Assembly: GCA_947311125.1 (NCBI GenBank)
Contig: CAMZKI010000048.1
Coordinates: 1-48,976 of the forward strand
Source: an uncultured Chlorobiota bacterium
GTDB lineage: Bacteria > Bacteroidota > Bacteroidia > Bacteroidales > JAADGE01
Length of the DNA: 48,976 bases
Direction of reading: 5' to 3'
Positions 17,173 to 42,557 of this stretch are shown in pieces. Made by a program: the position numbers and the translations under genes. Every line of letters starts with the position of its first letter. Positions within the stretch are counted from its first letter, which is position 1. Under the pieces are notes generated by a model that saw only the letters and a list, made by a program, of their open reading frames with translations, ran no database searches and was not told the DNA's origin.

Positions 17173-18903
17173 TTATTTTGTTTGTGAATAAAATTTTAAC
17201 ATTTTTTCTTCGGTATCGTAAATATAAATCAGATTTTCTTTATTTTTTGTTTTATAAAGAAGGATACCGTCGTGCGGCAGGTATTCATATTTTTTTGCTT
17301 CGTAAGTTTTTCCGGCTTCATTTGTTCTTTTCAGCATATTTCCGAGATACCACCGACCTCCTCTTCTGCCTTTTTTGACCGTTTTTATTTTTATATCTTC
17401 GTTTACGTGAACAGATAAAGTTTCATCATTATCAAAAATTATCAAAATTTGCCGTTCTTTCGTTTTTGTATTTGAGAGTATTACGGCAAAATCTTCTTTT
17501 TCATTGTCATTAAAATCTCCGAAGGCAACAGTATTCATCTCGAAGACTTTCTTTTCTTCCGGAAAAATTTTCCAGTCTGTTTCATTATTTTTGTAATATT
17601 GGTTTTCAACAAAATAATTTCGCAGTGCAAGTTTATATTTGGCAGGTATCAGGTTTCCTGCAATGCTGTTTCCCATTATTGCGTTTATTTGCACAAAAGT
17701 ATGAGAAATTCCCAAGTCTTCGGCATAAACCCATCCTATTTTATTTCTTAAACTTTTAACCTTATACCAAGGCTTTATAATGATTCCGTCTTCCGGTTTT
17801 TTAATTACTCTTACGGTTTCTCCGTAATGAAGGCTTTCTATTTTTTTTGCCGTCAAACTGTCTCCTTCAAGAAGAAAAGCGTTATTATCAATAACTCTTC
17901 GTTCATCTTTTTTTGATAAAAAATACAGTCCGCTTACAATAATTGCCGAAAAAGCAATTGCTGCTATAAGCATAATCAGGTTTTGCCAAAAACTTATGCC
18001 GAGGTTCGGTTTTTTAATTTCAAAATCCGCCGAATCAATAATTTTTGTCTGCAGAGAAATTGTTGCAGCTTTTGTTCGTTTCTTCTGTGAGCTTAATAAA
18101 TCTATACTAAATTCATCGCAAGCCTGATAACGATTAAGGGGTTGAGTCTCAGTAGCCCTCCTTATAACATTACGCATTTTGTCGGAAACACCAATGTAAA
18201 AAGAGTGCGGGTCTGGAAAAGGCTGAGTTACAATTTTGTTATAAATTTCGTACTCGCTTAAATTTTTATCATAAGGATATTGTCCCGTAAGAATATAAAA
18301 AAGCGTTGCCCCGATTGAGTATATATCCGTTCTTCTGTCAAGAATTTTTCCTTTAACCTGTTGCGGGCTCATAAAGATTGCCGTTCCGAGTTTTGATCCT
18401 CCCTGAGTTATGAGTGCCTGGTTTTTTCTCAGATGTTTGGCAATCCCGAAATCTATAAGTTTTATAGTATTATCAGATGTTATCATAATATTTGAGGGCT
18501 TTATGTCCCTGTGTATCATATTTTTAGAATGCATATGTCCGACAGCGTCAAGAACCTGTAAAATAATTTTTACGGCTTTTGACTCAGGAATGGGTCCCGA
18601 AACCAAATCAACGTATTCATCAAGGGTTTGCCCTTTTACATATTCCGTAATAATAAAAATACCTTGGTCGTTTTCAATATAATCATATAAAGTTACAATA
18701 TTCGGGTGATTGAGTTTTGACAAGAGTTTTGCTTCATTTAAAAAGCGTTTTTTATACTGAGGGTTTTTTTGTAAAACCGGATTCAGCATTTTTACGGCAA
18801 CTTTTTTCTTTAAATACTTATGAATGCCGAGATAAACGGTTGACATTCCGCCTTCGTCAATTATTTCGTCTATTTCATAATTATTTACAAATTGACCTAT
18901 CAT
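17173..18903 (-). CDS. Membrane-spanning Hanks-type Ser/Thr protein kinase with an extracytoplasmic SH3b-like / FG-GAP-like region
   Basis: GGMSTVYLG...VAVKM, HRDIKPSNIM, DFGIAK and SPQQ motifs. One TM segment (LIMLIAAIAFSAIIVSGLYFL). The ectodomain contains GETVRVIKK...WYKVKS...GWVYAEDLG and FGDFNDNEKEDFAV. Confidence 0.92.
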   Translation of the reverse strand: MIGQFVNNYEIDEIIDEGGMSTVYLGIHKYLKKKVAVKMLNPVLQKNPQYKKRFLNEAKLLSKLNHPNIVTLYDYIENDQGIFIITEYVKGQTLDEYVDLVSGPIPESKAVKIILQVLDAVGHMHSKNMIHRDIKPSNIMITSDNTIKLIDFGIAKHLRKNQALITQGGSKLGTAIFMSPQQVKGKILDRRTDIYSIGATLFYILTGQYPYDKNLSEYEIYNKIVTQPFPDPHSFYIGVSDKMRNVIRRATETQPLNRYQACDEFSIDLLSSQKKRTKAATISLQTKIIDSADFEIKKPNLGISFWQNLIMLIAAIAFSAIIVSGLYFLSKKDERRVIDNNAFLLEGDSLTAKKIESLHYGETVRVIKKPEDGIIIKPWYKVKSLRNKIGWVYAEDLGISHTFVQINAIMGNSIAGNLIPAKYKLALRNYFVENQYYKNNETDWKIFPEEKKVFEMNTVAFGDFNDNEKEDFAVILSNTKTKERQILIIFDNDETLSVHVNEDIKIKTVKKGRRGGRWYLGNMLKRTNEAGKTYEAKKYEYLPHDGILLYKTKNKENLIYIYDTEEKMLKFYSQTK

Positions 18904-20015
18904 TATTTGTCGTTTACATTTTGCGGAATTATAAATCTTTCACCGGGGTAAAAATAAAACTCCCGCTTGTTATTAACCCTTAAAATATCAATAATATTAT
19001 ATTCATTAACTCCGGGATAAGAAAAAATATTTTTCCCGACAGAATATCTGTATATATTATTTGTATGTTTTTTAAAAATTAAATCAGAAGAATTACTTAT
19101 GATGATATCTGTATTTTTTAAGGGTCTGTCTTTTCGGAAAAAATAGTTATACATAAAAAACGCATTAACAAGCAAAAAGATGATACCCAGCAAAGCAATG
19201 TTTTTAAGTTTTTTCTTTTTATCGTTTTTTTTGAAAGTAAAAGACCTTTTGGATTTTTTACCTGTATTATAAAAACGAATTAAACTTACGGTTACGTTAT
19301 CATTGCCGCCGTTGTTTAATGCTCTTTTTATTAATTGCCTGCCTGCTTTCTTAATGTCTGTTTCTTTTTGTATTATTTTCAGAATATCTTTATCTTCAAG
19401 TTCATTTGTAAGTCCGTCGGAACAAATTAAAATATAATCGTTATCTGCCGGAATCAACGGTTTTTCACAAATGTCGACAGAGACTGTTTCTCTTATTCCG
19501 ACAGCATTGTAAATAATGTTTTTCTGTATATGGTTTCGGGCGTCTGTTTCGGTGATTTTTTTTTCCTTGAGAAGCTTGTTGATTAAAGAGTGGTCTTCTG
19601 TAAGCTGAAATAATTTTTTTCCTGTTTTGTAATAAATTCTGCTGTCTCCGGCGTGTGCATAAAAAACTTTATTATCTCTGATTAAAACCAAAGCAATGGT
19701 TGTTCCGGGATATACGTTTTTTTCAGGTTGCCCGAGTTTTGCCCGAAGTTCCGTATTTGCAAAGTTTACAGCATCGTATATCAGCAACCGTTCGTTATCA
19801 TACCACGTTTCGGATATAAAAGACTCAATTTTTTCCAAAGTTAAAGAGGCTGCTTTTTTTCCGTCAGGAATTCCGCCCATTCCGTCGCAAACGGCAAAAA
19901 CGGCACCGTTAATACTTTCAAAATAAACAAAAGCATCCTGATTTTCGTTTCTTACAAGACCTTTGTCTGTTTTTGAAAATTCCCGGTATATTTTAAGTTG
20001 TTGTGTTTGGCTCAC
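18903..20015 (-). CDS. Membrane-anchored PP2C-family Ser/Thr phosphatase with a short LysM-like ectodomain
   Basis: NQDAF, CDGMGG and GGNDNVTV metal-site motifs. TM segment IALLGIIFLLVNAFFMYNYFF. Apparent GTG start. Its TAA stop overlaps the kinase ATG by 1 nt (TAATG). Confidence 0.9.
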   Translation of the reverse strand: MSQTQQLKIYREFSKTDKGLVRNENQDAFVYFESINGAVFAVCDGMGGIPDGKKAASLTLEKIESFISETWYDNERLLIYDAVNFANTELRAKLGQPEKNVYPGTTIALVLIRDNKVFYAHAGDSRIYYKTGKKLFQLTEDHSLINKLLKEKKITETDARNHIQKNIIYNAVGIRETVSVDICEKPLIPADNDYILICSDGLTNELEDKDILKIIQKETDIKKAGRQLIKRALNNGGNDNVTVSLIRFYNTGKKSKRSFTFKKNDKKKKLKNIALLGIIFLLVNAFFMYNYFFRKDRPLKNTDIIISNSSDLIFKKHTNNIYRYSVGKNIFSYPGVNEYNIIDILRVNNKREFYFYPGERFIIPQNVNDK

Positions 20016-20091
20016 TGTATATTAAACTTGAGGTAAAATTAATGTTTTTTCTCTTAATAGGCAGTAAAATCTTTAAATCAAAACAAATTCT

Positions 20092-20099
20092 TATTTTTG
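20092..20099 (+). promoter_or_regulatory. TAnnTTTG -7 box for the sulfotransferase/FemAB-like/wzx cassette
   Basis: TATTTTTG at 20092-20099. It overlaps the ORF-track start at 20097, which favours the TTG at 20121. Confidence 0.4.
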
Positions 20100-20120
20100 T
20101 GTTTTACACAAAATATTTTT

Positions 20121-20972
20121 TTGACAAAGATTATTTATATAGCCGGCTTAGGTCACTCAGGTTCAACAATTTTGGATATGGCATTGGGCTGCCATCCGGA
20201 AATTGTAGGCTTAGGAGAGATTTATGCTGTTTTTAATAAAAAAAAAACGTCCGAGCTTTTTGAAAAGTCAACTTGTTCTTGCGGTAAAAAAGGTATTGAT
20301 TGTTATTTTTGGAAAGATCTGCAAAAAATTTCAGCTTCAGAGCTTAAAACAGAAGAGAAATACAAAAAACTTATTGAAATCTTTACTGAAAAGTACGGGG
20401 AAAATATGATTTTACTTGACAGCTCAAAAAATTCATATTCATACCTCCGTTTTTTGAATAAAGAATATGACCTGAGAGTAATATATTTAACAAGAGACTA
20501 CAGAAGCTGGATTTATTCCCGCTTCGCACGAACCCGAAAACCGATGCTTTTTCTTGGTTTAAGATGGTATCTTGAAAACCGAAAATTATTATATGTTCTG
20601 AAAAAATACAATTTGAAAATAATGACTGCGGGCTATGAAGAACTTTCCGTATATCCGGAGTTTATTTTAAGAAAAATATCTGATTTTACCGGTATTGATT
20701 TTTCGGATAAAATGTTGTATCCCGATAATACAAAAAGCCATATTATAAACGGAAATATCAGTCGTGTCGATAAAAATAAAAGGAAGGCGTTTTTTTATGA
20801 CGTACGGTGGATGACATCCGGCAGACTTGCACGATTATCAAGCATATTTGCCGTGTTTAACAAATTTAACAGGAGCTTGGTTTTTTCAAATATTTCCGGA
20901 AAGGAAAAAACCGATTTCTATATTTTCGGAAATGAAAGAAAAAAGAGTTTACTGAAAAACCATAATGAATAA
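20121..20972 (+). CDS. Sulfotransferase family protein (P-loop-like PAPS-binding type)
   Basis: MTKIIYIAGLGHSGSTILDMALGCHPE (5'-PSB-like) and IYLTRDYRSWIYS (3'-PB-like). TTG start inferred, with no in-frame ATG near the N-terminus. Confidence 0.75.
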   Translation: MTKIIYIAGLGHSGSTILDMALGCHPEIVGLGEIYAVFNKKKTSELFEKSTCSCGKKGIDCYFWKDLQKISASELKTEEKYKKLIEIFTEKYGENMILLDSSKNSYSYLRFLNKEYDLRVIYLTRDYRSWIYSRFARTRKPMLFLGLRWYLENRKLLYVLKKYNLKIMTAGYEELSVYPEFILRKISDFTGIDFSDKMLYPDNTKSHIINGNISRVDKNKRKAFFYDVRWMTSGRLARLSSIFAVFNKFNRSLVFSNISGKEKTDFYIFGNERKKSLLKNHNE

Positions 20973-21879
20973 AACTTTGCAGATAAGATATATTAAACAC
21001 ACAGAGATTGACAAGCCCCTATGGGACAGCAAAATACACAAAGCTGCAAACGGCAGGATTTATGCTTTTTCCGGCTGGCTGGATATTGTTTCTCCGGAAT
21101 GGTCGGCTTTAGTTACCGATAGTTATGACTTTTTGATGCCTTTGCCCGGAAAAAAAAAGTTCGGAATTAAGTATGTTGCGCAACCGAAATTTACTCAACA
21201 AACAGGTATTTTTTCTTCCCGAAAAATAACGAACAATATTGTTTCGGATTTTTTAAAATCAATACCCGAAAAATATAAATATCAAGTGGTTCATTTAAAT
21301 TCTCAAAATAGAATATCCGGTGAAAATATTGTAAAAAAAACAAACCACTTGCTAAGTTTAAATAATAAATTTTCAAATTTATTCAAGGCTTTTTCTCAAA
21401 ATACAAAGCGAAACATAAGAAAATCGGAAAAACTTAAAAACATAACGGACAAAAACATTTCCGTTGACGAAGCAATTTTTTTGAAAAAAGAAAATAACAT
21501 AAACGCTCTTTCCGAAAAAGATTTAAAAACGTTAAGACGCTTAATTTTATTTGCAAAAGAGCAATTTAATGTTAAAATTTACGGGGTAAGAAATAAAAAC
21601 AAAAAGTTAATTTCCGTTACCGTTTTTGTTTTTTGCGAAAACAGGATTTACTTACCGCTAATAGCGTCTTCACCTGAAGGAAAAAAGAAATTTGCTTCGT
21701 TTCATATTTTTAATACATTTATTGAAGAATACGCCGGTAATGAGTTATTTTTGGATTTTGAGGGTTCTTCCGTTCCCGGAGTTGCTCGTTTTTTTGAAGG
21801 GTGGGGAGCCGTTCCTGAAACTTATTACATTTACAGGCAAAATAATTTGCCGGTGTTTTTTAAAATATTTAAAAAGTAA
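20965..21879 (+). CDS. FemAB-like / GNAT-fold acyl(aminoacyl)transferase family protein
   Basis: 304 aa with the C-terminal LDFEGSSVPGVARFFEGWGA pattern seen in FemAB-related GNAT (Acetyltransf_6-like) proteins of polysaccharide loci. Overlaps the upstream gene by 8 nt. Confidence 0.5.
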   Translation: MNKTLQIRYIKHTEIDKPLWDSKIHKAANGRIYAFSGWLDIVSPEWSALVTDSYDFLMPLPGKKKFGIKYVAQPKFTQQTGIFSSRKITNNIVSDFLKSIPEKYKYQVVHLNSQNRISGENIVKKTNHLLSLNNKFSNLFKAFSQNTKRNIRKSEKLKNITDKNISVDEAIFLKKENNINALSEKDLKTLRRLILFAKEQFNVKIYGVRNKNKKLISVTVFVFCENRIYLPLIASSPEGKKKFASFHIFNTFIEEYAGNELFLDFEGSSVPGVARFFEGWGAVPETYYIYRQNNLPVFFKIFKK

Positions 21880-21899
21880 CGTAACAGCACAAAGCCATT

Positions 21900-23174: not shown

Positions 23175-24491
23175 TTAGACTCTTATAAACATAACAACTC
23201 CGCCGAGTTTTATCATATCTTTTGCCTTAAGCTTATATTTTTTAACTTTCTTTTTGTCTGCAACAACACCGTTTGTGCTTCCCAAGTCTATGATATAAAA
23301 ATCACTGCCTTCTTTATTTATTACAGCATGATTTGCCGATACGGTCATATCCGGAATAACAACATCGTTATCGTCAGCTCTGCCTATTTTTATAATGTGT
23401 TTCTCAAAAAAATATGTCTTGTTAAATCCCTTTCCTTTTATGTTTATTTCAATCGGCTTTACAGCAGGTATATACTTAGCCTCTTGTAATAATTCAGCCT
23501 GCTTTATCTTTTTTTTGTAAGTTATAAGAACAAGTATTAACAATAAAAACAAAACAGAGGAAAAAATTGTTAAAAAAAGCTCCTTTTGTGTCAGAAATAT
23601 TTTACTTGGTTTTTCAACAATAACGTCAACGGTATTTTTGTTAAGATTCAGGGATATTTCGGACCGTTTTGTTTTTGCAGACAAGATCAGTGAGATTTTA
23701 TAAAAATCGGGCTTCATTGTTTTTGAGAAATAGGAAAGGTCTTCTGTGTATCTCCTTAGCTCTTTTAATGCTTCTTTTTCTTTTTTTATTTGAGAATACA
23801 TTCCGCCGGTTTTTCGACATATTTTTATTATTTCCTGTTCTGCATTTGGCTTTATATCTGCCGTTTGTAAAAAATAAACAGGAAAACGGTCGTTGTTTAA
23901 CGCCCCGGAACAAAAATCAAAAGGGAATTCTTTATTTTCGGAAATAATGAAAACTCCTATATTATCAAATTCAGATTTTTTCAAGAACAGATAATCTTTT
24001 ATTTTTTTACTTTCTTCACAGTTTTCTTTTGTTTTGTTTTTCTTGAGTACGGGGAAATAATTTTTCAGAAACCCGGTAAAAAAAGTTTTGTTTTTACTAA
24101 ATTCAGGGCTTATAAAAGAAATAAAACGTTTACCTTTTTTGTTAGTGTTTACAATTCCGATATTAAACTCATCTGTTTTCTTAAGTCGTTCTGTCTCTTT
24201 CAACATTATATTTATTATTCTTTTTGACGCATTAATGTCAATTATAAATAATATTTTTATATCTCGTTTTATTTCCTTAAGAAGAACCGGAGTTATTTTG
24301 AAAGCTTGTTTTTTGCCGTTTTCAAAAACATTAGAGTTAGATATATTAAGATGCTCTTTGCTTTTAACAAAAATATTAACTTTCGGATAATGAGAATCGT
24401 CAATTTTTATAACTCTCACATTATTTTGTGCAAGCAGCCCCGAAAATTCGAAAGCAAACAGAATAAAAAAAACGGTAATTCTTATCTTCAT
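23175..24491 (-). CDS. Single-pass membrane FHA-domain protein with a vWA-like extracytoplasmic domain
   Basis: Signal peptide, an ectodomain with KILFIIDINAS (degenerate MIDAS), a TM segment (LFLTIFSSVLFLLLILVLITY), and a C-terminal FHA domain (IKIGRADDNDVVIPDMTVSANHAVINKEG...YIIDLGSTNGV). Confidence 0.85.
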   Translation of the reverse strand: MKIRITVFFILFAFEFSGLLAQNNVRVIKIDDSHYPKVNIFVKSKEHLNISNSNVFENGKKQAFKITPVLLKEIKRDIKILFIIDINASKRIINIMLKETERLKKTDEFNIGIVNTNKKGKRFISFISPEFSKNKTFFTGFLKNYFPVLKKNKTKENCEESKKIKDYLFLKKSEFDNIGVFIISENKEFPFDFCSGALNNDRFPVYFLQTADIKPNAEQEIIKICRKTGGMYSQIKKEKEALKELRRYTEDLSYFSKTMKPDFYKISLILSAKTKRSEISLNLNKNTVDVIVEKPSKIFLTQKELFLTIFSSVLFLLLILVLITYKKKIKQAELLQEAKYIPAVKPIEINIKGKGFNKTYFFEKHIIKIGRADDNDVVIPDMTVSANHAVINKEGSDFYIIDLGSTNGVVADKKKVKKYKLKAKDMIKLGGVVMFIRV

Positions 24492-24507
24492 TTTTTATTT
24501 TTTTTAA

Positions 24508-25163
24508 CAATGCGAATATAAAACTTTATTCTGTGTCTTATATGTTATTAAAGCTTTTTGTCCTATATTTGAAATAATTAAGAAAGCCGATGAAAAATTC
24601 AGAGGTAAATCAACATACGGCGAAATGGCCATGACCATTGTTCGTCCGATATGAAAACGAACATTAAAATTTAAAACATGGGGAAAAGGAACCGATTATT
24701 CCTTGGCTCTTATCACTTATCCCGCAAAAGAAAAAGGATAAACCATTCTGAAACAAAAAAACGAAATGTGGACTTGGAATCCCAAAATTTCACGCCTGAT
24801 AAAAATGCCGTTGTTATTTGGGGAAAATTGATAAAGCGGATAAGCAAAAATGAATACAACCAAATGAAATCGGAATATTATGACGAAGACGAATATCTGA
24901 TAAAAACAGATATTACCTCAGAGGTTAAACTTATGGGAAACAAAAAAATTCCGACACATATTGAGATAATTCCGGCAGACGAACCAAACCATAAAACAAT
25001 TGTTGATATAAATTCAATGGTTTTTGATATTCCGATAAGCGATAATGCCGAATTTGATGTTTTAGCACAAACATTCGGCGGTAAATTAAAAAATTCGGTA
25101 ACGGAAAACACCGAATTCAAGCAAATTACTTTTGCATTTTTACAGTTTAAATACAGTTTCTGA
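24508..25163 (+). pseudogene. Decayed LolA-like outer-membrane lipoprotein-sorting protein (PF17131-like) remnant
   Basis: One frame reads ...EIIKKADEKFRGKSTYGEMAMTIVRPI*KRTLKFKTWGKGTDYSLALITYPAKEKG*TILKQKNEMWTWNPKISRLIKMP, with stops TGA at 24652 and TAA at 24739. Homology resumes in another frame at about 24807 (AVVIWGKLIKRISKNEYNQMKSEYYDEDEYLIKT...IPTHIEIIPADEPNHKT). No start codon or signal peptide remains. Confidence 0.7.
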
Positions 25164-25172
25164 AAATTATTT

Positions 25173-25180
25173 TATATTTG
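25173..25180 (+). promoter_or_regulatory. TAnnTTTG -7 box heading the long glycan operon
   Basis: TATATTTG at 25173-25180, 37 nt upstream of the cysC ATG at 25217. It overlaps the ORF-track start at 25178. Confidence 0.45.
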
Positions 25181-25216
25181 CAGTTCTTTATTAAAAACCT
25201 AAAGCTTTTATTTTTG

Positions 25217-25819
25217 ATGCAAAATGCAGATAACATACATCCGGTCTTTGATCGGATAATAAGCAAGGAGCAGAAAGAACAACTTCTCAAACAAAGAGCA
25301 AAAGTGTTGTGGTTTACCGGATTGTCCGGTTCCGGAAAAACGACTTTGGGAGCTGCTGTCGAAAAAGAACTTTTTAACCGCGGTTTTCTTACGCAAATAT
25401 TAGACGGCGACAATATTCGCTCCGGTATCAATAAAAATCTGAAATTTACGGAAGAAGACAGAGTTGAGAATATTCGCAGAATTGCCGAGGTTACAAAACT
25501 TTTTTTGAACTGCGGAGTAATTACTATAAACTGTTTTATCAGCCCGACTGAAGAATCTCGAGATATTGCCAAAAGTATTATAGGTAAGGAGAATTATATA
25601 GAGGTTTACGTTAATACACCCATCGAAGTCTGCGAAAAACGAGATATAAAAGGCTTATATGCTAAAGCCAGAAACGGGGAAATAAAAAACTTCACGGGAA
25701 TAACATCACCGTTCGAAGCACCGAAAAATCCGGATATTATTATTAATACAGACAAACTGTCTCCGGAAGAATCTACCAAAAAGATTCTTAACTTTCTTTT
25801 GAAAAAAATTACATATTAA
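25217..25819 (+). CDS. cysC: Adenylyl-sulfate (APS) kinase
   Basis: VLWFTGLSGSGKTTLG P-loop, LDGDNIRSG, FISP and KGLYAKARNGEIKNFTGI are APS kinase hallmarks. Start set at the ATG at 25217. Confidence 0.93.
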   Translation: MQNADNIHPVFDRIISKEQKEQLLKQRAKVLWFTGLSGSGKTTLGAAVEKELFNRGFLTQILDGDNIRSGINKNLKFTEEDRVENIRRIAEVTKLFLNCGVITINCFISPTEESRDIAKSIIGKENYIEVYVNTPIEVCEKRDIKGLYAKARNGEIKNFTGITSPFEAPKNPDIIINTDKLSPEESTKKILNFLLKKITY

Positions 25820-25826
25820 GTTCTGA

Positions 25827-26696
25827 ATGACAGAAAAACAATTAAATAATATTGTGCCGGAAAATTGGTCTATGATAATCAAGCCAAAACGGCATTGGTT
25901 TGACATAAACCTTAAAGAATTATGGGCATACCGAGACCTTATAGCTCTGTTTGTAAGAAGAGATTTTGTAGCAAAATATAAACAGACAATATTAGGTCCT
26001 TTGTGGTTTATAATTCAACCGCTTTTAACAACACTTATGTTTACCGTTGTTTTCGGAAACATTGCAAAACTTTCTACTGACGGGCTGCCTAAAATACTTT
26101 TTTACTTTTCCGGAATTGTAGGATGGAACTATTTTGCAGAAAGCCTTAAAGCAACATCAAATACATTCGTTACAAATGCAAGTATATTCGGGAAAGTATA
26201 TTTTCCGAGATTAACAATGCCGATTTCAATAGTAATTTCAAATTTAGTCCTGTTTTTTATACAGTTCGTGTTTTTGTTGGTTTTTATCGGATATTATTAT
26301 TTCCTGGGCGTAAATATTTCAATAAGCTTCTACATTTTGCTTCTTCCCTTTTTAATTCTTATGACAGCAGGATTAGGGCTCGGCTTCGGTATAATTATAT
26401 CCTCCCTCACAACAAAATACAGAGACCTTACCTACCTGGTAACTTTCGGCGTTCAGCTATGGATGTATGCAACTCCTATCATATATCCTTTGTCAAGTAT
26501 AAGCGGAATATATAAAAAATTTATTCTGCTGAACCCTATGACGCCGATAATAGAAACATTCAGGTTTATTATGTTAGGTTCCGGAGAGCTTAATTTAGGG
26601 CAATTATTGTACAGTTTTATTTTTATGATTGCTACTTTAATTCTGGGGATTTTGCTGTTTAATAAGATAGAGCAGTCATTTATGGATACAGTTTAA
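25827..26696 (+). CDS. wzm: ABC-2 type polysaccharide export permease (Wzm/TagG-like)
   Basis: 289 aa with 6 TM segments. N-terminal WAYRDLIALFVRRDFVAKYKQTILGPLWFIIQPL is the ABC-2 signature region. Confidence 0.88.
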   Translation: MTEKQLNNIVPENWSMIIKPKRHWFDINLKELWAYRDLIALFVRRDFVAKYKQTILGPLWFIIQPLLTTLMFTVVFGNIAKLSTDGLPKILFYFSGIVGWNYFAESLKATSNTFVTNASIFGKVYFPRLTMPISIVISNLVLFFIQFVFLLVFIGYYYFLGVNISISFYILLLPFLILMTAGLGLGFGIIISSLTTKYRDLTYLVTFGVQLWMYATPIIYPLSSISGIYKKFILLNPMTPIIETFRFIMLGSGELNLGQLLYSFIFMIATLILGILLFNKIEQSFMDTV

Positions 26697-26708
26697 TCGT
26701 TTTTTCAG

Positions 26709-27992
26709 ATGTCGAATATTGCAATAAAATTAGAAAATATTTCAAAACAATACCGCCTCGGAGTTGTCGGAACAGGAACACTAAGCCATGACCTGAACCG
26801 TTGGTGGGCGAAAGTCAGAGGAAAAGAAGACCCGACGTTGAAAATCGGACAGGAAAATACCCTGGCTAAAGAAGGAGGAGATTACGTTTGGGCATTAAAA
26901 AATATAAACCTTGAAATAAAACAAGGCGAAGTACTCGGAATAATGGGAAAAAACGGTGCCGGAAAATCTACGCTTTTGAAACTTTTATCTCGGGTAACCG
27001 GACCTACAACCGGACAAATTAAGATTAAAGGGCGTATTGCCAGCCTGTTGGAAGTAGGAACAGGCTTTCACCCTGAATTAACAGGCAGAGAAAATATTTT
27101 TCTGAACGGGGCAATCCTCGGAATGCGAAAAGGGGAAATCCGAAAAAAACTTGATGAAATTGTTGATTTTGCCGGTGTCGCAAAATACTTAGACACACCT
27201 GTTAAACGCTACTCTTCAGGAATGTACGTTCGTCTTGCATTTGCCGTAGCCGCACATCTCGAACCGGACATTCTCGTTGTTGACGAAGTCCTTGCCGTAG
27301 GCGATGCCGAATTTCAGAAAAAAGCAATCGGAAAAATGCAGGACGTAAGCAAAGGTGGTGGCAGGACTGTGCTTTTTGTTAGCCATAATATGGCGAGTAT
27401 TCAACAATTGTGTTCAAGAGCTGTTGTTTTGCAAAGCGGTTCTGTTTTTTTTAACGGAAATGTTAAAAGTGCCGTAGAAAAATACTTGTTACAAAATATA
27501 AACTATTTTAACTCAAAAGGAAGATATGATTTTACAAATCAAAAAATAGGTGATGATAAATTTCTGCTGCAGGAAATAACAGTTTCTGATTCAAAAAATA
27601 AGATAAGAACACTTTTTCTGCAAGAAGAAGAAATTGTTATAAAAATAAAATTTAAACTGTTTTCCTTTATTGCCGGAATGAGAATAAACTTATGGATAAA
27701 AACAGTTTCCGGAATAATTGCTTTCGGAACCAGTTCTCACGAATTAACAAAGGACAGGTTAGACAAAGGTATATATAAAATAAAGGCAATAATACCTCCG
27801 GGGCTTTTAAATACAGGAAGGTATATTTTAGGAATTAATATAGGTATCCCCGGAGTGAAGTTTTTGGTTAAAAACTTTGACTTTGGTTTTGTTGATATTG
27901 AATCAGGAGCTGTTCACGGGTCTGCTTACAGTGAAAAGTGGGAAGGAATTGTTGCCCCAAAAATAGATTGGCTATATGAAGAAGTTAGTTAA
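26709..27992 (+). CDS. wzt: Polysaccharide ABC exporter ATPase (Wzt/TagH-like) with a C-terminal Wzt_C-like extension
   Basis: Walker A GKNGAGKST, signature YSSGMYVRLAFA and Walker B ILVVDE. About 180 extra C-terminal residues are rich in beta-strand-like sequence. Confidence 0.88.
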   Translation: MSNIAIKLENISKQYRLGVVGTGTLSHDLNRWWAKVRGKEDPTLKIGQENTLAKEGGDYVWALKNINLEIKQGEVLGIMGKNGAGKSTLLKLLSRVTGPTTGQIKIKGRIASLLEVGTGFHPELTGRENIFLNGAILGMRKGEIRKKLDEIVDFAGVAKYLDTPVKRYSSGMYVRLAFAVAAHLEPDILVVDEVLAVGDAEFQKKAIGKMQDVSKGGGRTVLFVSHNMASIQQLCSRAVVLQSGSVFFNGNVKSAVEKYLLQNINYFNSKGRYDFTNQKIGDDKFLLQEITVSDSKNKIRTLFLQEEEIVIKIKFKLFSFIAGMRINLWIKTVSGIIAFGTSSHELTKDRLDKGIYKIKAIIPPGLLNTGRYILGINIGIPGVKFLVKNFDFGFVDIESGAVHGSAYSEKWEGIVAPKIDWLYEEVS

Positions 27993-28788
27993 GACAATTA
28001 TTAAAAAAAAACTGAACAGATATGTAGAAAGCAAAATAAAGTCTGTTATGTCTTCAGATTTTTTTATTCCTGTTACAGAAACAAAAGATGAAGATATTTT
28101 TATCGTTGCTTTTCCTAAATCAGGTATTACCTGGATGCAGTCTGTTGTTTCCGGGCTTTTATTTGAAATAAATACAGAATATTTAACAGATCATTTGGCA
28201 CAGGAAATTGTTCCGGATGTTCACGCCCGTAAATTTTATAAAAGATTTTCGGAGTTTAATTTCTTTAAGTCCCACAATCTTCCCCAAAAACAGTATCGCC
28301 GTGTAATTTATTTAGTCAGAGACGGCCGTGATGCTTTAACGTCATATTATTTTTTTAACAAAGAGTTAGGCAACAACTTTTCTCTGGAGGAAATGGTTAC
28401 GGAGGGAAAGGGGATTTTTCCGTCTAAGTGGCACTGCCATGTAAAAAAGTGGCTTGAAAATCCCTATAATGCGGATATTATATATGTGAGATATGAGGAT
28501 TTATTAAAAAATCCGCTAACAGAATTACAAAGGATTTGTAAATTTTCGGGACTGGAACGAAATAATGAAACTTTGAAAAAAATAATTGACGGAACATCAA
28601 TAAAGAAGATGAAACAACGGGCTAAACAATACGGAGGACTGGCTCACAGTGCATGGAAAGGAGAAAAGGGAGAAAAATTTTTCCGTAAAGGAACAATAGG
28701 AGACTATAAAAATTATTTCTCTCCGGATATTTTAAACTTTTTTAATAATGAAGCAAAAGAAGAGTTAGCAAAGTTTAATTATTTATAA
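27976..28788 (+). CDS. Sulfotransfer_1 (PF00685-like, eukaryote-type) PAPS-dependent sulfotransferase
   Basis: 5'-PSB AFPKSGITWMQ, 3'-PB YLVRDGRDALTSYYFF and C-terminal FRKGTIGDYKNYFS. Overlaps the wzt end by 17 nt. Confidence 0.85.
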   Translation: MKKLVKTIIKKKLNRYVESKIKSVMSSDFFIPVTETKDEDIFIVAFPKSGITWMQSVVSGLLFEINTEYLTDHLAQEIVPDVHARKFYKRFSEFNFFKSHNLPQKQYRRVIYLVRDGRDALTSYYFFNKELGNNFSLEEMVTEGKGIFPSKWHCHVKKWLENPYNADIIYVRYEDLLKNPLTELQRICKFSGLERNNETLKKIIDGTSIKKMKQRAKQYGGLAHSAWKGEKGEKFFRKGTIGDYKNYFSPDILNFFNNEAKEELAKFNYL

Positions 28789-28823
28789 ATCCCGAGCAGC
28801 AGATTTAATTAAAACCTATATTT

Positions 28824-29486
28824 ATGGTGTTACTTATTAAAAAAATATTAAAACGAATATTAAGTTTCATTTACCCGGAGCTAAAGCCTGTTTTATATTA
28901 TAAATTAAATTTAAACTCTCTAAGGTCTTCTGCTTTTAACACTGTTTTAGGCAAACATGTAAAACTTTATCCCACATATAAAATAAATAACACCACAATC
29001 GGAGACTATACATATATTGCACAAAACTCACAAGTTAATAATACATCAATAGGAAAATTTTGTTCAATCGGTCCCGGTTTCAAATGCGGCTGGGGAGTTC
29101 ATCCGACAAACGGACTTTCAACCAGCCCCGTGTTTTATTCAACATTAAAGCAAAACGGAATAACTTTCAGCAAAACAAACAAAATTGAAGAAACAAAGCC
29201 GATATCAATAGGAAACGATGTTTTTATCGGCAGAGATGTTATAATTTTAGATGGTGTAACAATAGGAAACGGTGCCGTTATAGGGGCAGGAACCGTTGTT
29301 TCAAAAGACATCCCTGACTTTGCCGTTGCTGTCGGCTGTCCGGTTAAGATTGTAAAATATCGGTTCTCGGAAGAACAGAGAAAAAACCTTAACAAAATAA
29401 AATGGTGGGACTTTAATGAAGAGAAATTAAAAAATGTCGAAAAATACTTTTTTGATATTGATAGTTTTATAAAAGAATTTGAATAA
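28824..29486 (+). CDS. Hexapeptide-repeat (XAT/CatB-like) O-acetyltransferase
   Basis: Left-handed beta-helix repeats (IGNDVFIGRDVIILDGVTIGNGAVIGAGTVV) and a C-terminal KYRFSEEQ...WWDF motif typical of the xenobiotic acetyltransferase family. Confidence 0.8.
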   Translation: MVLLIKKILKRILSFIYPELKPVLYYKLNLNSLRSSAFNTVLGKHVKLYPTYKINNTTIGDYTYIAQNSQVNNTSIGKFCSIGPGFKCGWGVHPTNGLSTSPVFYSTLKQNGITFSKTNKIEETKPISIGNDVFIGRDVIILDGVTIGNGAVIGAGTVVSKDIPDFAVAVGCPVKIVKYRFSEEQRKNLNKIKWWDFNEEKLKNVEKYFFDIDSFIKEFE

Positions 29487-30583: not shown

Positions 30584-31280
30584 CCTTTATAAAGCAATAA
30601 AAAGAGCCTTAGTTCCTGAACTTAAAAAGTTTTATTCTAATGAATTAATTATAAAAAGGAACGATTATCAAAGAAAAGATATTTTTGTTTCACCTTTTTT
30701 TACAATTGAAAACACAAATTTATCCTGCGGGGTCAGGCTGTACGGCAGAGGAAAAGTTACAAAAAGCAAAATAGGAAGTTACACATATATACACACAGAC
30801 TCAACTATTGCTTATGCTGAAATCGGAAAATTTTGCAGTATAGCACAAAATACAATTATAGCACAAGGTGAACACCCTGCAGACTTTATTTCAACCCATC
30901 CTGTTTTCTACTCAAAAAATGCCCCGTGGAATGATAAATTTTCAAATGAAGACATTATTGAAGAGCACTCAAGCGTAATTATAGGAAATGATGTATGGAT
31001 AGGTGCGGGATGCTATATTAAAGACGGGGTAAAAATAGGAAACGGGGCAATCATAGCTTCCGGCTCTGTTGTTGTAAAAAACGTACCCGACTATGCAATT
31101 GTCGGGGGTGTCCCTGCAAAATTAATAAAATACAGGTTTTCAGAAGAAATAATAAAATTGCTGTCAGATTTAAAATGGTGGGATTATGACATCGATATAC
31201 TGAAAAAACATAAGGGTTTTTTTCAAAAAAAAATAACCGAAAAAGAATTAACATCTCTCATTGAATCTTTAAAAAAATAA
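30570..31280 (+). CDS. Hexapeptide-repeat (XAT/CatB-like) O-acetyltransferase, paralog of 28824-29486
   Basis: IGNDVWIGAGCYIKDGVKIGNGAIIASGSVV and KYRFSEEI...WWDY align with the other acetyltransferase. Confidence 0.8.
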   Translation: MKLFSLYKAIKRALVPELKKFYSNELIIKRNDYQRKDIFVSPFFTIENTNLSCGVRLYGRGKVTKSKIGSYTYIHTDSTIAYAEIGKFCSIAQNTIIAQGEHPADFISTHPVFYSKNAPWNDKFSNEDIIEEHSSVIIGNDVWIGAGCYIKDGVKIGNGAIIASGSVVVKNVPDYAIVGGVPAKLIKYRFSEEIIKLLSDLKWWDYDIDILKKHKGFFQKKITEKELTSLIESLKK

Positions 31281-31281
31281 A

Positions 31282-31683: not shown

Positions 31684-31686
31684 ATT

Positions 31687-32610
31687 ATGAAAAGATCATA
31701 TATTTTTATTGGAGGGCTACCGCGTTCCGGCTCTACGTTATTACAAAAAATTTTAAACACACATTCTTTAATTGCCGGAGGACCGGAGTTTAGAAATTTA
31801 GACAAAATACTTTCTCTGAAAAATGTGATTTTGAATAATAATGAACTCAAAAATTTTCTTGGAGAAGAACAAATAAATAATTCAACAAAATTGTTTATAA
31901 ATTCACTTTTCCTGGATAATAAGAATTTTTCGGATTATACATACTTTAGCGAAAAAACACCTGAAAATGTTTTTATATTCGAGGAGTTATTATATTTATT
32001 TCCGGATGCAAAATTTATTTTAACTGTCAGAAACCCGTTTTCTGTTATCGCTTCACTAAAAAAAGTCAGAGAAAGAGGAAAGAAGAACGGGCAAATCGTT
32101 ACCGGTAACGTAATTGAAAACTCGCTTTATGTTAAGAGAATGTTTAATGAAATATTTTACCTGAAAAAAAAGTATTCAAAAAAAATCTGTACTGTAAATT
32201 ATGACGATATAATTAACAACAGTGAGCAAGAGATAAGAGCAATTTGTGATTACTTAGGAATACAATTCGAAACAAAAATGTTAAAGCCGAATAATATTAA
32301 TGTTGAAAACCGAAAAATATGGATGACAAGTAGTGACAACATAAACAAAATTGACGATTCAAGGTTAAATAAATGGATTAAAGACCTTTCAAACACAGAA
32401 AAGCATATTGTAAATTACATATTTAAAGATACCTGTAAACAGGAACATCTTCAAAAATATCAACTCGGTTCAGAACAAAAAAAATACAAAATAATTGCGA
32501 AAACTTTAATTACACTAAATAACTTAAAACTAAAACTGAAAAACTCCTTATATTTGTTTTTAATGTATAAAATAAAACTAATAAGTCCTCCGGTTTATCA
32601 AATTAAATAA
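31687..32610 (+). CDS. Sulfotransferase family protein (Sulfotransfer_3-like)
   Basis: IFIGGLPRSGSTLLQKIL (5'-PSB) and LTVRNPFSVIASL (3'-PB-like). Confidence 0.78.
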   Translation: MKRSYIFIGGLPRSGSTLLQKILNTHSLIAGGPEFRNLDKILSLKNVILNNNELKNFLGEEQINNSTKLFINSLFLDNKNFSDYTYFSEKTPENVFIFEELLYLFPDAKFILTVRNPFSVIASLKKVRERGKKNGQIVTGNVIENSLYVKRMFNEIFYLKKKYSKKICTVNYDDIINNSEQEIRAICDYLGIQFETKMLKPNNINVENRKIWMTSSDNINKIDDSRLNKWIKDLSNTEKHIVNYIFKDTCKQEHLQKYQLGSEQKKYKIIAKTLITLNNLKLKLKNSLYLFLMYKIKLISPPVYQIK

Positions 32611-37232: not shown

Positions 37233-37237
37233 AACAA

Positions 37238-41706: not shown

Positions 41707-42557
41707 ATGAAACATTTTTTCCCGAGACTGCTTAATAAATTCGGATTATTAAAAATACTTAACCTTTCATTTAAAATAACGGTAAACAATAATAGTTTTA
41801 AAATCCCTGTTATTGCCGGTATAGGTTTTAACAATCTGTTTATGTCTGAAGTTTGGATGGTTCAGGTTCTTGAAAAAATCACAAAACTAAAACACGGAAC
41901 ATTTATAGATGTAGGAGTAAATATCGGACAGACATTAATAAAATTGCGGTCAGTTGATAAAGAAAGAGAATATTTAGGCTTTGAACCTAACCCTTTGTGT
42001 GTTTTTTATACAGAAGAGCTTATAAAAAAAATAATATTCAAAAATCAACCGTTATTTCTGCCGGAATATATAATCAGAGTAAAGTTTTGACATTAAATTT
42101 GTATTACGAAAAGGATTCATCGGACAGTTCCGCATCAATTATTGAAAATTTCAGAACCCAGGAAGTTAAAAAGAAGTTTTTTGTTCCTGTTTTTTCTGCC
42201 GGTACATTAAAGCACCTTTTTAACAATATTTCAATTATTAAGATTGATGTTGAAGGAGCAGAATTAGACGTTATCGAAAGTTTTAAAAAACAAATTTTAC
42301 AGTTTCGTCCTTTTATTTTGACAGAAATTCTTCCGGTTTATGAAAAATCCAATACCTTCAGAAGAGAACGCACAGAAAAAATAGTTTCCTTTATTTCAAA
42401 AATGGACTATATTATATTCAGAATAATAAAAAATCAAAATGACACATTTAATAAATTTGAAAAAATAACACACATTTCAGTTCATGCAGACTTGAGTTTA
42501 TGTGAATACATTTTTGTCCCAAAGGAACTTTCTGTTAAATTTGAGATTTCTGAATAA
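41707..42557 (+). pseudogene. FkbM-family SAM-dependent methyltransferase split by a frameshift in an A8 tract
   Basis: ORF 41707-42090 carries FIDVGVNIGQ...GFEPNP. ORF 41997-42557 carries IIKIDVEGAELDVIESF. The frames join at the A8 run at 42024-42031, and one extra A would give a continuous ...ELIKKNNIQKSTVISAG.... Confidence 0.8.

What the first reader, a model, noticed from the sequence alone, without database searches (positions are those of the whole stretch)
26709..28788. Wzt with a C-terminal carbohydrate-binding-like extension, translationally overlapped by a eukaryote-type sulfotransferase: sulfate as a possible chain-terminating export tag
**Seen in the sequence.** The Wzt ATPase has about 180 residues beyond the nucleotide-binding domain. 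Its last 17 nt overlap the start of the PF00685-like sulfotransferase.

**Established knowledge.** In ABC-transporter-dependent O-antigen systems such as E. coli O8/O9a, a non-reducing-end cap (methyl or phospho-methyl, added by WbdD) stops polymerisation. The Wzt C-terminal domain recognises that cap.

**Inference.** Here the cap could be a sulfate, or a methyl group from the FkbM enzyme at 41707. A sulfate-recognising Wzt domain would be a new variant of this mechanism.
Basis: inference. Interest (0 to 1): 0.65.

Follow-up and report, generated by a model that had tools for sequence, protein, structure and literature searches.

The report
Sulfotransferase paired with a glycan-exporter reader domain
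A polysaccharide export pump carries a distinct subtype of "cap-reading" domain that, across many Bacteroidota, is almost always followed by one particular sulfotransferase gene, so sulfate may be a new kind of "finished, export me" tag; this rests on sequence comparison only and has not been shown chemically.

Summary
The PF00685 sulfotransferase ST1 (27976-28788) starts 17 nt before the wzt stop. The order is cysC (PAPS supply)-wzm-wzt-ST1, tightly packed.

- **Fold.** The AlphaFold model of the extension (pLDDT 84) has the three solved Wzt cap-binding domains as its best PDB matches: E. coli O9a, A. aeolicus and R. terrigena.
- **Co-occurrence.** This domain subtype ("A1") is followed directly by a sulfotransferase in 18 of 21 independently sampled loci. 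For other Wzt loci the figure is 6 of 83. These adjacent enzymes form one clade. No other gene family is shared by more than 8 of 23 A1 loci.

A metagenome contig is 97.5% identical to the window from cysC to wzt codon ~237. Beyond that it carries a different reader domain and no ST1.

Three things remain unproven: that the sulfate is terminal, that it stops polymerisation, and that the domain binds it. ST1 has no coiled-coil ruler. Distance matrices show co-inheritance of the two genes but no extra co-evolution. The alternative FkbM methyltransferase gene is frameshifted.

Verdict: a plausible new variant of the known cap-and-reader export mechanism.

The parts
25217..25819 (+). cysC, adenylyl-sulfate (APS) kinase that makes PAPS, the sulfate donor. 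The mechanical ORF starts at TTG 25178; the first ATG is at 25217.
   Evidence: PF01583 E=4.8e-62. NCBIfam NF003013/TIGR00455 above their cut-offs. It lies 7 nt upstream of wzm. cysC also sits upstream of wzm in L108 and L109, and is present in L014, L051 and L090.
25827..26696 (+). wzm, the ABC-2 permease of the glycan exporter.
   Evidence: PF01061 E=6.8e-19. Weak NCBIfam matches to Wzm/RfbD and KpsM. The gap to wzt is 12 nt.
26709..27482 (+). wzt nucleotide-binding domain, residues 1-258, including the hinge helix (Tyr259 follows directly).
   Evidence: PF00005 E=4.6e-23. A. aeolicus Wzt 8dku/7k2t E~1e-63. Walker A, signature, Walker B and H-loop located. 72-91% identical to homologues whose C-terminal domains differ.
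27420..27420 (.). Approximate recombination junction inside wzt, near codon 237. Upstream is a conserved block; downstream is the variable (serotype-type) cassette.
   Evidence: L108 is 97.5% nt identical to window 25021..27420 and unrelated beyond. L109 similarity ends at 27413.
27483..27992 (+). wzt C-terminal carbohydrate-binding-type domain, subtype 'A1', residues 259-427.
   Evidence: PF14524 scores only 24.9 bits, below the gathering score of 30.4. AF2 model: pLDDT 84.3, pTM 0.79, all-beta. Foldseek top hits 2r5o, 6o14/8dky, 5hno/5hnp, TM 0.53-0.67. Family alignment A1 with invariant E49 G65 R67 N69 F81 P105 Y114 P123 G124 G146 W153 G155 P159 W163.
27976..27992 (+). 17-nt overlap between the wzt end and the ST1 start, consistent with translational coupling.
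   Evidence: In related loci, ST1 ORFs (called from the first possible start codon) begin between 42 nt before and 141 nt after the end of wzt. Algoriphagus sp. SE2 has the same 17-nt overlap.
27976..28788 (+). ST1, a PAPS-dependent sulfotransferase of the PF00685 (cytosolic SULT) family. It has no signal peptide or transmembrane segment.
   Evidence: PF00685 E=4e-38. SULT1C2/1B1/EST E~1e-22. Motifs FPKSGITW (5'-PSB), FFKSHNLP (catalytic His), VRDGRDALTSY (3'-PB) and FFRKGTIGDYK are conserved in the clade. It belongs to the clade of Wzt-adjacent sulfotransferases.
31687..32610 (+). ST2, a second sulfotransferase in the same cluster, from a different clade. It is a candidate for internal sulfation.
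   Evidence: PF13469 E=4.3e-29. It falls outside the ST1 clade in the NJ tree. Weak match to NoeE.
41707..42557 (+). FkbM-type methyltransferase gene split into two frames (41707..42090 and 41997..42557).
   Evidence: PF05050 matches only the second ORF, from profile position 39. The first ORF carries the DVGVNIG SAM-binding-type motif. An A8 run at about 42023-42030 lies in the overlap.

Best explanation
cysC-wzm-wzt-ST1 is the export-and-tagging head of an ABC-transporter-dependent glycan cluster in a Bacteroidota genome.

Proposed mechanism:
1. The glycan is built on a lipid carrier in the cytoplasm by the downstream glycosyltransferases.
2. CysC supplies PAPS.
3. ST1, a cytoplasmic PAPS-dependent sulfotransferase translationally coupled to wzt, sulfates the glycan.
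4. The A1-type C-terminal domain of Wzt recognises the ST1-dependent sulfated epitope and so selects the chain for export through Wzm/Wzt.
5. The most likely site is the non-reducing terminal sugar. There the sulfate would also block further elongation, as the methyl, methyl-phosphate and Kdo caps of E. coli O8/O9a and Klebsiella O12 do.

Shown here: the gene identities, the fold of the domain, the conserved Wzt(A1)-ST1 pairing, and that the domain belongs to the exchangeable serotype-type cassette.

Inferred: that the domain binds a sulfated ligand, that the sulfate is terminal, and that it terminates polymerisation.
For: (1) Tight operon cysC-wzm-wzt-ST1, with gaps of 7 and 12 nt and a 17-nt overlap.

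(2) The extension models as a beta-sandwich, and its best PDB matches are exactly the three solved cap-binding Wzt domains. The hinge-helix Tyr that contacts the glycan in A. aeolicus aligns with near-invariant Tyr259 (PMC9445017).

(3) Forward test. Of loci carrying an A1-type domain (profile score >=90 bits) with room downstream, 18 of 21 have a sulfotransferase ORF starting no more than 80 nt before, and no more than 400 nt after, the end of wzt. For other Wzt loci the figure is 6 of 83.

(4) Reverse test. Three of four ST1 homologues in long contigs lie just downstream of a Wzt with a C-terminal domain: Formosa sediminum, Algoriphagus sp. SE2 and a 7-Mb genome.

(5) All sulfotransferases adjacent to A1-type domains form one clade. 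The window's other two sulfotransferases fall elsewhere.

(6) Across 23 A1-type loci, ST1 is the only family besides Wzm and Wzt that recurs (18 loci). The next most frequent families reach 8 or fewer, so the backbones differ while the pair stays. ST1 is thus the only common terminator candidate.

(7) L108 is 97.5% identical up to wzt codon ~237. It then has a different C-terminal domain and no ST1. The domain is therefore exchanged with the biosynthetic cassette, as expected for a specificity determinant.

(8) ST1 is predicted cytoplasmic with an intact PAPS-binding and catalytic motif set. It can therefore act before export, where the Wzt domain sits.

(9) The gene order wzt-then-terminator matches E. 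coli O9a wzt-wbdD (established knowledge).
Against: - No chemistry is available. Nothing shows that sulfate is terminal rather than on every repeat.
- ST1 is a single-domain 270-aa protein without the coiled-coil ruler found in all characterised terminators (PMC11231755).
- Three A1-type loci lack ST1. L087 goes straight to an acetyltransferase, L099 has a methyltransferase, and L100 has nothing.
- Formosa sediminum has an ST1-clade gene behind a non-A1 Wzt, and Rhodohalobacter has one with no Wzt nearby.
- Domain-versus-ST distances correlate (r=0.47), but not once NBD distance is controlled for (partial r=-0.06). The data show co-inheritance, not specific co-evolution.
- The domain and ST1 are physically adjacent in the swapped cassette, so linkage alone explains part of the association.
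- No sulfate-specific residue signature could be defined. Arg67 is also kept in the two nearest non-ST relatives, L003 and L006.
- PF14524 scores below its gathering threshold, and the A1 profile finds no solved Wzt domain by sequence.
Confidence: 0.47

Rival explanations
1. ST1 is an ordinary decorating enzyme that sulfates internal residues of the polymer. Its position next to wzt reflects inheritance of a compact operon cassette. The A1 domain recognises some other feature, either another cap or the backbone.
For: The domain and ST1 are adjacent inside the block that is exchanged as a unit, so linkage predicts co-occurrence. There is no extra co-evolution once NBD distance is controlled for. 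ST1 has no coiled-coil ruler. Sulfated bacterial polysaccharides described so far carry sulfate on repeat units (titles and abstracts listed). Three A1 loci lack ST1.
Against: ST1 stays next to wzt while the rest of the cluster, and hence the backbone, changes. The pairing persists down to ~30% domain identity and across classes of Bacteroidota. A second, unrelated sulfotransferase (ST2) is available in the window for internal sulfation. Under this view most A1 loci would have no terminator candidate at all, although every Wzt with such a domain studied so far depends on a cap (PMC9445017, PMC11231755).
Confidence: 0.3
2. The cap is a methyl group or another non-sulfate modification made by a methyltransferase: FkbM at 41707-42557 here, and the methyltransferases that follow ST1 in other loci. 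ST1 would modify the same terminal sugar only as an accessory, or be irrelevant to recognition.
For: Methyl caps are the commonest known type (PMC9445017). A methyltransferase follows ST1 directly in six A1-type loci, and L099 has one in place of ST1. The E. coli O9a cap is itself a two-step modification, phosphate plus methyl (PMC3482155).
Against: The window's FkbM gene is frameshifted and lies 13 kb from wzt. Methyltransferases occur in only 6 of 23 A1 loci against 18 for ST1. L001 and L107 have ST1 but no methyltransferase in view.
Confidence: 0.12
3. The C-terminal domain is not a cap reader in this lineage. It could be a structural or dimerisation module, or bind the polymer non-specifically, with export not depending on any terminal tag.
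For: PF14524 scores below threshold, and identity to solved domains is only 15-19%. No ligand-binding residues could be mapped reliably. The loop 145-157, which holds the most conserved motif, has low model confidence.
Against: The domain evolves fast and is swapped together with the biosynthetic genes while the NBD stays 97% identical. That is the behaviour of a specificity determinant. The fold matches only the cap-binding domains at the top of the list.
Confidence: 0.08

Closest known systems
E. coli O9a / Klebsiella O3 system: wzm-wzt-wbdD. WbdD adds a methyl-phosphate cap that the Wzt C-terminal domain (PDB 2R5O) recognises.
   Same: Gene order wzm-wzt-modifying enzyme. Wzt is an NBD plus a C-terminal beta-sandwich, and 2r5o is the top Foldseek hit. 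The modifying enzyme is cytoplasmic and adds a small anionic group. The domain belongs to the serotype-specific part of the locus.
   Different: The donor is PAPS and the group is sulfate, not ATP/SAM and methyl-phosphate. ST1 is a 270-aa single domain with no coiled-coil ruler and no kinase or methyltransferase modules. The domains are only ~15% identical. Nothing is known about binding or termination here.
Aquifex aeolicus WzmWzt (PDB 7K2T, 8DKU, 8DKY): a carbohydrate-binding domain that binds 3-O-methyl-mannose/rhamnose caps.
   Same: It is the best sequence match in the PDB over the NBD and into the C-terminal domain (E~1e-63). The folds match. The hinge-helix Tyr is conserved.
   Different: The A. 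aeolicus pocket is hydrophobic around the methyl group (Leu300, Thr346, Ala348, Trp362; PMC9445017). The A1 family has its own invariant set (Arg67, Asn69, the GIPG turn, the GS..EKWPG..P...W tail). That set could not be aligned reliably to the A. aeolicus pocket.
Raoultella terrigena / Klebsiella O12 Wzt domain (PDB 5HNO/5HNP), which reads a beta-Kdo cap added by WbbB.
   Same: It gives the highest TM-scores to the model, 0.62-0.67. The cap is anionic, as sulfate would be.
   Different: The cap is a sugar added by a GT99 module of a large coiled-coil protein, not a sulfate ester.
Aeromonas salmonicida A450 O-antigen cluster: wzt followed by ORF19, a 216-aa protein with a sulfotransferase domain (PMC4483657).
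   Same: It has the same wzt-then-sulfotransferase adjacency in an ABC-dependent O-antigen cluster. The authors could not explain the gene because no sulfate appears in the repeat-unit structure. A single terminal sulfate could escape such analysis.
   Different: It is a gammaproteobacterium and the protein is shorter. A WbbB-like protein with a Kdo-transferase-type module follows it, so Kdo may be the cap there. Relatedness to ST1 was not tested.
Cytosolic sulfotransferases (SULT1/2 families), and the bacterial PF00685 members Teg12/Teg14.
   Same: All four PAPS-binding and catalytic motifs are present. E~1e-22 to SULT1C2/1B1.
   Different: The genomic context points to a lipid-linked glycan as acceptor, not a small molecule. 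There is a clade-specific N-terminal basic extension of 35-45 residues and an LAQEIVPDVH motif.

Membership tests
Wzt: glycan-export ABC ATPase with a C-terminal carbohydrate-binding domain | ABC nucleotide-binding domain with Walker A, signature, Walker B and H-loop | tested here: met
   PF00005 E=4.6e-23. Motifs at residues 80, 168, 188 and 225. A. aeolicus Wzt E~1e-63.
Wzt: glycan-export ABC ATPase with a C-terminal carbohydrate-binding domain | Adjacent ABC-2 permease (Wzm) in the same operon | tested here: met
   PF01061 E=6.8e-19 at 25827..26696, 12 nt upstream.
Wzt: glycan-export ABC ATPase with a C-terminal carbohydrate-binding domain | C-terminal jelly-roll/beta-sandwich fold like 2R5O | tested here: met
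   AF2 pLDDT 84.3, pTM 0.79. Foldseek ranks 2r5o, 6o14/8dky, 8dne/8dl0, 5hno/5hnp, 7k2t and 8dku in places 1-17, probability 1.00, TM 0.53-0.67.
Wzt: glycan-export ABC ATPase with a C-terminal carbohydrate-binding domain | Pfam Wzt_C (PF14524) match above the gathering score | tested here: not met
   24.9 bits against a cut-off of 30.4, covering residues 280-378 only. The A1 profile finds no solved Wzt domain by sequence. The subtype is a sequence outlier of the family.
Wzt: glycan-export ABC ATPase with a C-terminal carbohydrate-binding domain | Domain dimer with exchanged C-terminal strands, and specific binding of the terminal cap | not testable with these tools
   Only a monomer model without coordinates was available. 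Testing needs protein and ligand.
PAPS-dependent sulfotransferase, PF00685 | Family score above the gathering threshold over the whole domain | tested here: met
   131.7 bits against a cut-off of 22; residues 38-267 cover profile positions 1-254 of 255.
PAPS-dependent sulfotransferase, PF00685 | 5'-phosphosulfate loop (PKxGxTW), 3'-phosphate motif (RxxxDxxxS), catalytic His, and C-terminal RKGxxGDxK | tested here: met
   FPKSGITW, VRDGRDALTSY, FFKSHNLP and FFRKGTIGDYK are present and conserved in 40 homologues. They align to SULT1C2.
PAPS-dependent sulfotransferase, PF00685 | Sulfotransfer activity and acceptor identity | not testable with these tools
   Requires an enzyme assay.
Polymerase-terminator (capped glycan) export system, E. 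coli O8/O9a and Klebsiella O12 type | A terminal-modifying enzyme encoded with the transporter | tested here: inconclusive
   ST1 overlaps wzt and is the only conserved partner of the A1 domain. Its site of action is unknown.
Polymerase-terminator (capped glycan) export system, E. coli O8/O9a and Klebsiella O12 type | A terminator carrying a coiled-coil molecular ruler | tested here: not met
   The sulfotransferase domain fills residues 38-267 of 270. The remaining 37 N-terminal residues leave no room for a ruler of the WbdD/WbbB kind. No coiled-coil predictor was run. The Pfam scans showed no obvious coiled-coil protein within the wzm/wzt cluster; the only coiled-coil-type match was a weak SIKE hit on the upstream ORF 20965..21879.
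Polymerase-terminator (capped glycan) export system, E. coli O8/O9a and Klebsiella O12 type | Transporter reader domain that varies with the cap chemistry | tested here: met
   A1 domain with ST1 in 18/21 loci against 6/83. An NBD 97.5% identical at the nucleotide level carries a different domain and no ST1 in L108.
Polymerase-terminator (capped glycan) export system, E. coli O8/O9a and Klebsiella O12 type | Cap at the non-reducing end that stops elongation and is required for export | not testable with these tools
   Needs glycan structure determination and genetics.

The most novel reading that the evidence does not exclude
Sulfate is a fourth chemistry of glycan chain-terminating export tag, after methyl, methyl-phosphate and Kdo. 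It would be installed by a small sulfotransferase without a ruler and read by a dedicated, sequence-divergent subfamily of Wzt carbohydrate-binding domains.
Probability: 0.4. Interest if true: 0.7.

Novelty: new variant of a known kind. Interest (0 to 1): 0.58.

Why it matters
Cap-dependent export is the quality-control and chain-length mechanism of ABC-transporter-dependent O antigens and related glycans. Only three cap chemistries have been demonstrated, all in Proteobacteria or Aquifex.

A sulfate cap would extend the paradigm in three ways:
- to a new donor, PAPS;
- to a terminator with no molecular ruler;
- to Bacteroidota, whose sulfated surface glycans matter in marine carbon cycling.

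It would also explain unexplained sulfotransferase genes next to wzt, such as the one in Aeromonas salmonicida.

The pairing gives a directly testable prediction in cultured strains: Psychroserpens burtonensis, Xanthomarina gelatinilytica, Formosa sediminum and Algoriphagus sp. SE2. It would also offer a natural sulfate-sugar-binding module. If the rival holds, and the sulfation is internal, the locus is an ordinary sulfated-polysaccharide cluster.

Tried and rejected
- **Domain-only homologue search.** Searching the protein collection with the C-terminal domain alone found nothing because the word index failed. The full-length search followed by splitting into domains worked.
- **A1 profile against PDB sequences.** No Wzt domain was found. 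The relationship to solved domains is visible only at fold level.
- **Mapping the A. aeolicus cap pocket.** I tried to map I299, L300, N313, T346, A348, H350, the trap loop and W362 onto A1. The only sequence alignment is the weak tail of an NBD-anchored phmmer alignment that stops at A. aeolicus residue 348, and no model coordinates were available. I do not claim a pocket correspondence.
- **Sulfate-specific residue signature.** I compared domains with and without an adjacent sulfotransferase. Arg67 and the EKWPG tail are shared with the few A1 members lacking ST1. The EKWPG motif was also the pattern used to fish the metagenome loci, so its conservation there is partly by construction.
- **Mirror-tree test.** Domain-ST r=0.47, but partial r=-0.06 after controlling for the NBD. 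There is no evidence of specific co-evolution.
- **Promoter and terminator scan of 24400-32000.** Counts were no different from shuffles, and the consensus does not apply to Bacteroidota anyway.
- **Literature.** No paper in the library links a Wzt domain to sulfate. The census by Mann, Kimber & Whitfield (Glycobiology 2019, doi 10.1093/glycob/cwz066) could not be read and may already list sulfotransferases as predicted terminators.
- **Eukaryotic acquisition of ST1.** Rejected. The clade is broad within Bacteroidota.
- **NCBIfam.** It has no model for ST1 or for the domain.
Full report
**What is there**

The window has about 33% G+C. The best homologues of its genes come from Flavobacteriaceae and other Bacteroidota.

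From 25178 to at least 48859, almost all ORFs are on the + strand and form a polysaccharide cluster. Its head is tightly packed:
- cysC, APS kinase (ATG 25217..25819; PF01583 E=4.8e-62)
- wzm (25827..26696; ABC-2 permease)
- wzt (26709..27992; 427 aa)
- a PF00685 sulfotransferase, here called ST1 (27976..28788; 270 aa; E=4e-38)

The gaps are 7 and 12 nt, and ST1 overlaps wzt by 17 nt.

Downstream lie:
- three hexapeptide acyltransferases;
- a 365-aa protein with at most a faint GT4-like N-terminus;
- a second sulfotransferase, ST2 (31687..32610, PF13469);
- GT2 and GT4 glycosyltransferases;
- a DegT aminotransferase;
- an FnlA/CapE-type dehydratase, a reductase and 2-epimerases, which suggest 2-acetamido-2,6-dideoxy-L-hexose and ManNAc-type precursors;
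- an FkbM-type methyltransferase.

A third sulfotransferase-like ORF (20097..20972) lies in a separate upstream group with a Wzx-like protein.

**Checking the observation**

The coordinates, the overlap and the family assignments are correct.

Wzt has all the ABC motifs. It is most similar among solved structures to Aquifex aeolicus Wzt (E~1e-63). The part beyond the hinge helix is about 169 residues.

Pfam's Wzt_C model matches only weakly, at 24.9 bits against a gathering score of 30.4. A profile of the domain alone finds no solved Wzt domain by sequence.

The alternative ST1 start at 28048 would remove the overlap. It is unlikely, because 40 homologues have N-termini as long or longer.

ST1 has the full PAPS-binding and catalytic motif set of cytosolic sulfotransferases. 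It has no signal peptide or membrane segment, so it should act in the cytoplasm.

An A8 run lies in the overlap.

**Test 1: fold of the extension**

I aligned 32 C-terminal domains from full-length homologues (alignment A1). I then modelled the window's domain: pLDDT 84.3, pTM 0.79, all-beta. Confidence is low only at residues 1-9 and in the 145-157 loop.

Foldseek against the PDB puts the three experimentally characterised cap-binding Wzt domains in ranks 1-17 (probability 1.00, TM 0.53-0.67, 15-19% identity):
- E. coli O9a (2r5o);
- A. aeolicus (6o14, and 8dky with bound 3-O-methyl-mannose);
- R. terrigena/Klebsiella O12 (5hno/5hnp).

Generic beta-sandwiches (NPC2, RhoGDI) follow.

The hinge-helix tyrosine that touches the second and third sugars in A. 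aeolicus (PMC9445017) aligns with Tyr259, which is nearly invariant in A1.

**Test 2: co-occurrence**

The NBD is 72-91% identical among the 120 best homologues. The C-terminal domain reaches at most ~52% identity and is often unrelated, so the domain defines subtypes.

I assembled three samples:
- (a) 80 species-representative genome loci found with full-length Wzt, whose domains are mostly non-A1;
- (b) 19 metagenome loci found with a domain-only pattern;
- (c) four loci looked up from Wzt hits with A1-type domains: a Lutibacter MAG, a Logan assembly contig, Psychroserpens burtonensis and Xanthomarina gelatinilytica.

I detected sulfotransferases with an iterated HMM and scored domains with an HMM built from A1.

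Among loci with at least 500 nt after wzt, 18 of 21 with an A1 score of 90 bits or more have a sulfotransferase ORF starting no more than 80 nt before, and no more than 400 nt after, the end of wzt. Among the others, 6 of 83 do (odds ratio 77, Fisher p=2e-12). The samples are related, so the p-value overstates independence.

In the reverse direction, three of four ST1 homologues in long contigs sit just downstream of a Wzt with a C-terminal domain. Algoriphagus sp. SE2 has the same 17-nt overlap, a 7-Mb genome has the order Wza-Wzc-Wzm-Wzt-ST1, and in Formosa sediminum another sulfotransferase lies between. The fourth, Rhodohalobacter, has no Wzt nearby.

In a neighbour-joining tree, every sulfotransferase adjacent to an A1-type domain falls in one clade with ST1. 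ST2 and the upstream sulfotransferase fall elsewhere.

Among 23 A1-type loci, the ST1 family is present in 18. No other downstream family is present in more than 8: a GT4, GT2s, a methyltransferase in 6, and a hexapeptide transferase in 6. The pair is therefore retained while the rest of the cluster, and hence presumably the backbone, changes.

**A recombination junction inside wzt**

Contig L108 (ENA ERZ27262649) is 97.5% identical in DNA to window 25021..27420. That stretch covers the last 140 nt of the preceding ORF, cysC, wzm and wzt up to about codon 237. Beyond it there is no detectable similarity.

L108's Wzt ends in a different domain, a clear PF14524 match. It is followed by an aminotransferase and a PglD-like acetyltransferase, not ST1. 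A Chlorobi-type MAG (L109) shows the same pattern at 76% identity, with similarity ending at 27413.

The C-terminal domain thus belongs to the exchangeable, serotype-like cassette, as in E. coli O8/O9/O9a. This is what one expects of a specificity determinant. It also means that the domain and ST1 are linked inside one mobile block.

**Mechanism proposed**

- *Shown:* the identities, the fold, the conserved pairing and the cassette behaviour.
- *Inferred:* CysC feeds PAPS to ST1. ST1 sulfates the lipid-linked glycan in the cytoplasm. The A1 domain recognises that sulfated epitope and licenses export. The most economical version puts the sulfate on the non-reducing terminal sugar, where it would also end elongation.

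The inference follows from analogy with the methyl, methyl-phosphate and Kdo caps, the only cap types described in the papers read here (PMC9445017, PMC11231755, PMC3482155). In most A1 loci, ST1 is also the only candidate terminator in view.

I put about 0.47 on this as a whole. I put somewhat more, roughly 0.55-0.6, on the weaker statement that the domain reads an ST1-dependent epitope.

**What speaks against it**

- There is no chemistry.
- ST1 is a bare 270-aa enzyme without the coiled-coil ruler present in every characterised terminator (PMC11231755). Chain length would have to be set differently.
- Three A1-type loci lack ST1: L087 has an acetyltransferase like the window's next gene, L099 has a methyltransferase, and L100 has nothing.
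- ST1-clade genes also occur behind a non-A1 Wzt (Formosa sediminum) and without any Wzt (Rhodohalobacter).
- Pairwise distances of domain and ST1 correlate (r=0.47), but the partial correlation given the NBD is -0.06. The data show co-inheritance and no extra co-evolution.
- I could not define sulfate-specific residues or map the invariant A1 residues onto the known pocket.

**Rivals**

1. Internal decoration plus linkage (0.30).
2. A methyl or other cap, with ST1 accessory (0.12). This is weakened by the frameshifted FkbM gene, and by methyltransferases occurring in only 6 of 23 loci.
3. A domain that is not a cap reader (0.08). This is weakened by its cassette behaviour.

**Comparison with what is known, and novelty**

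The system works like the E. coli O9a wzm-wzt-wbdD arrangement and is a member of the Wzm/Wzt transporter family. The C-terminal domain is a sequence outlier of Wzt_C that meets the fold criterion but not Pfam's score.

It fails the coiled-coil criterion, and the remaining criteria need experiments.

No paper in the searchable library connects a Wzt domain with sulfate. The nearest published hint is an unexplained sulfotransferase-domain gene directly after wzt in Aeromonas salmonicida (PMC4483657). The 2019 bioinformatic census by Mann, Kimber and Whitfield could not be read and may already list sulfotransferases among predicted terminators.

A profile search of 1.84 billion representatives finds 239 proteins at E<=1e-10 and 1360 at E<=1e-3. 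The subtype is not rare.

I rate this a new variant of a known kind, with moderate-to-good interest. It is testable at once in cultured strains.

Noticed in passing
window 41707-42557 (A8 run at about 42023-42030): The FkbM-type methyltransferase gene is split into two overlapping frames, 41707..42090 and 41997..42557. The shift falls in or near a run of eight A. It could be a sequencing or assembly error, a pseudogene, or a slipped-strand (phase-variable) site.
   Followed up: partly
window 25021-27420; L108 5314-7710: A metagenome contig is 97.5% identical over exactly this 2.4-kb block (cysC-wzm-wzt NBD) and unrelated on both sides. The left junction falls inside the LolA-like ORF 24678..25163. 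Only its last 47 residues match the 390-aa gene of L108, at 87%.
   Followed up: partly
window 20097-23174: A separate + strand group upstream holds a third sulfotransferase-like ORF (weak PF13469), a 304-aa protein with only a weak SIKE (coiled-coil-type) Pfam match, and a Wzx-like flippase (weak PF01943). It may be a second, Wzx-dependent sulfated glycan pathway.
   Followed up: no
window 15260-24491: A eukaryote-like signalling set lies next to the glycan genes: a Ser/Thr protein kinase with an SH3 domain (17173..18903, -), a PP2C phosphatase (18903..20015, -), and a membrane protein with a C-terminal FHA domain (23175..24491, -).
   Followed up: no
window 45401-46642; also L002 105-1262 and 9295-10542; L109 211-1335: An AAA_14/DUF4143 ATPase gene sits inside the glycosyltransferase cluster. 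The same family recurs beside Wzt clusters in unrelated contigs, as if it were a mobile or selfish insert at such loci.
   Followed up: no
L001 12069-14231; L002 4574-6838; L107 9103-11256: In several related loci, ST1 is followed by a ~720-750-aa fusion of a radical-SAM domain with a polysaccharide pyruvyl-transferase domain. This is an unusual architecture. It could make a second terminal modification.
   Followed up: no
L109 8256-9092: In the Chlorobi-type MAG, the gene overlapping the end of wzt (which has a different domain subtype) encodes a 278-aa protein with no Pfam match. By position it is a candidate for yet another unknown terminator.
   Followed up: no
P0241 (3939 aa) and P0245 (1930 aa): Two giant proteins match positions 34-72 of the A1 domain profile, 44 and 20 times respectively. 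This is probably a repeated beta-hairpin motif unrelated to Wzt.
   Followed up: no
window 36249-40355 and 42557-43669: The genes look like an FnlA/CapE-type dehydratase, a reductase and 2-epimerases, interrupted by a GT4, plus a second UDP-GlcNAc 2-epimerase. They suggest L-FucNAc/L-QuiNAc-type and ManNAc residues in the polymer.
   Followed up: no
window 909-2537: A CitMHS-family transporter is encoded here. No ATP sulfurylase (cysD/cysN) was seen among the ORFs scanned with Pfam, so APS for CysC must be made by genes elsewhere in the genome.
   Followed up: no
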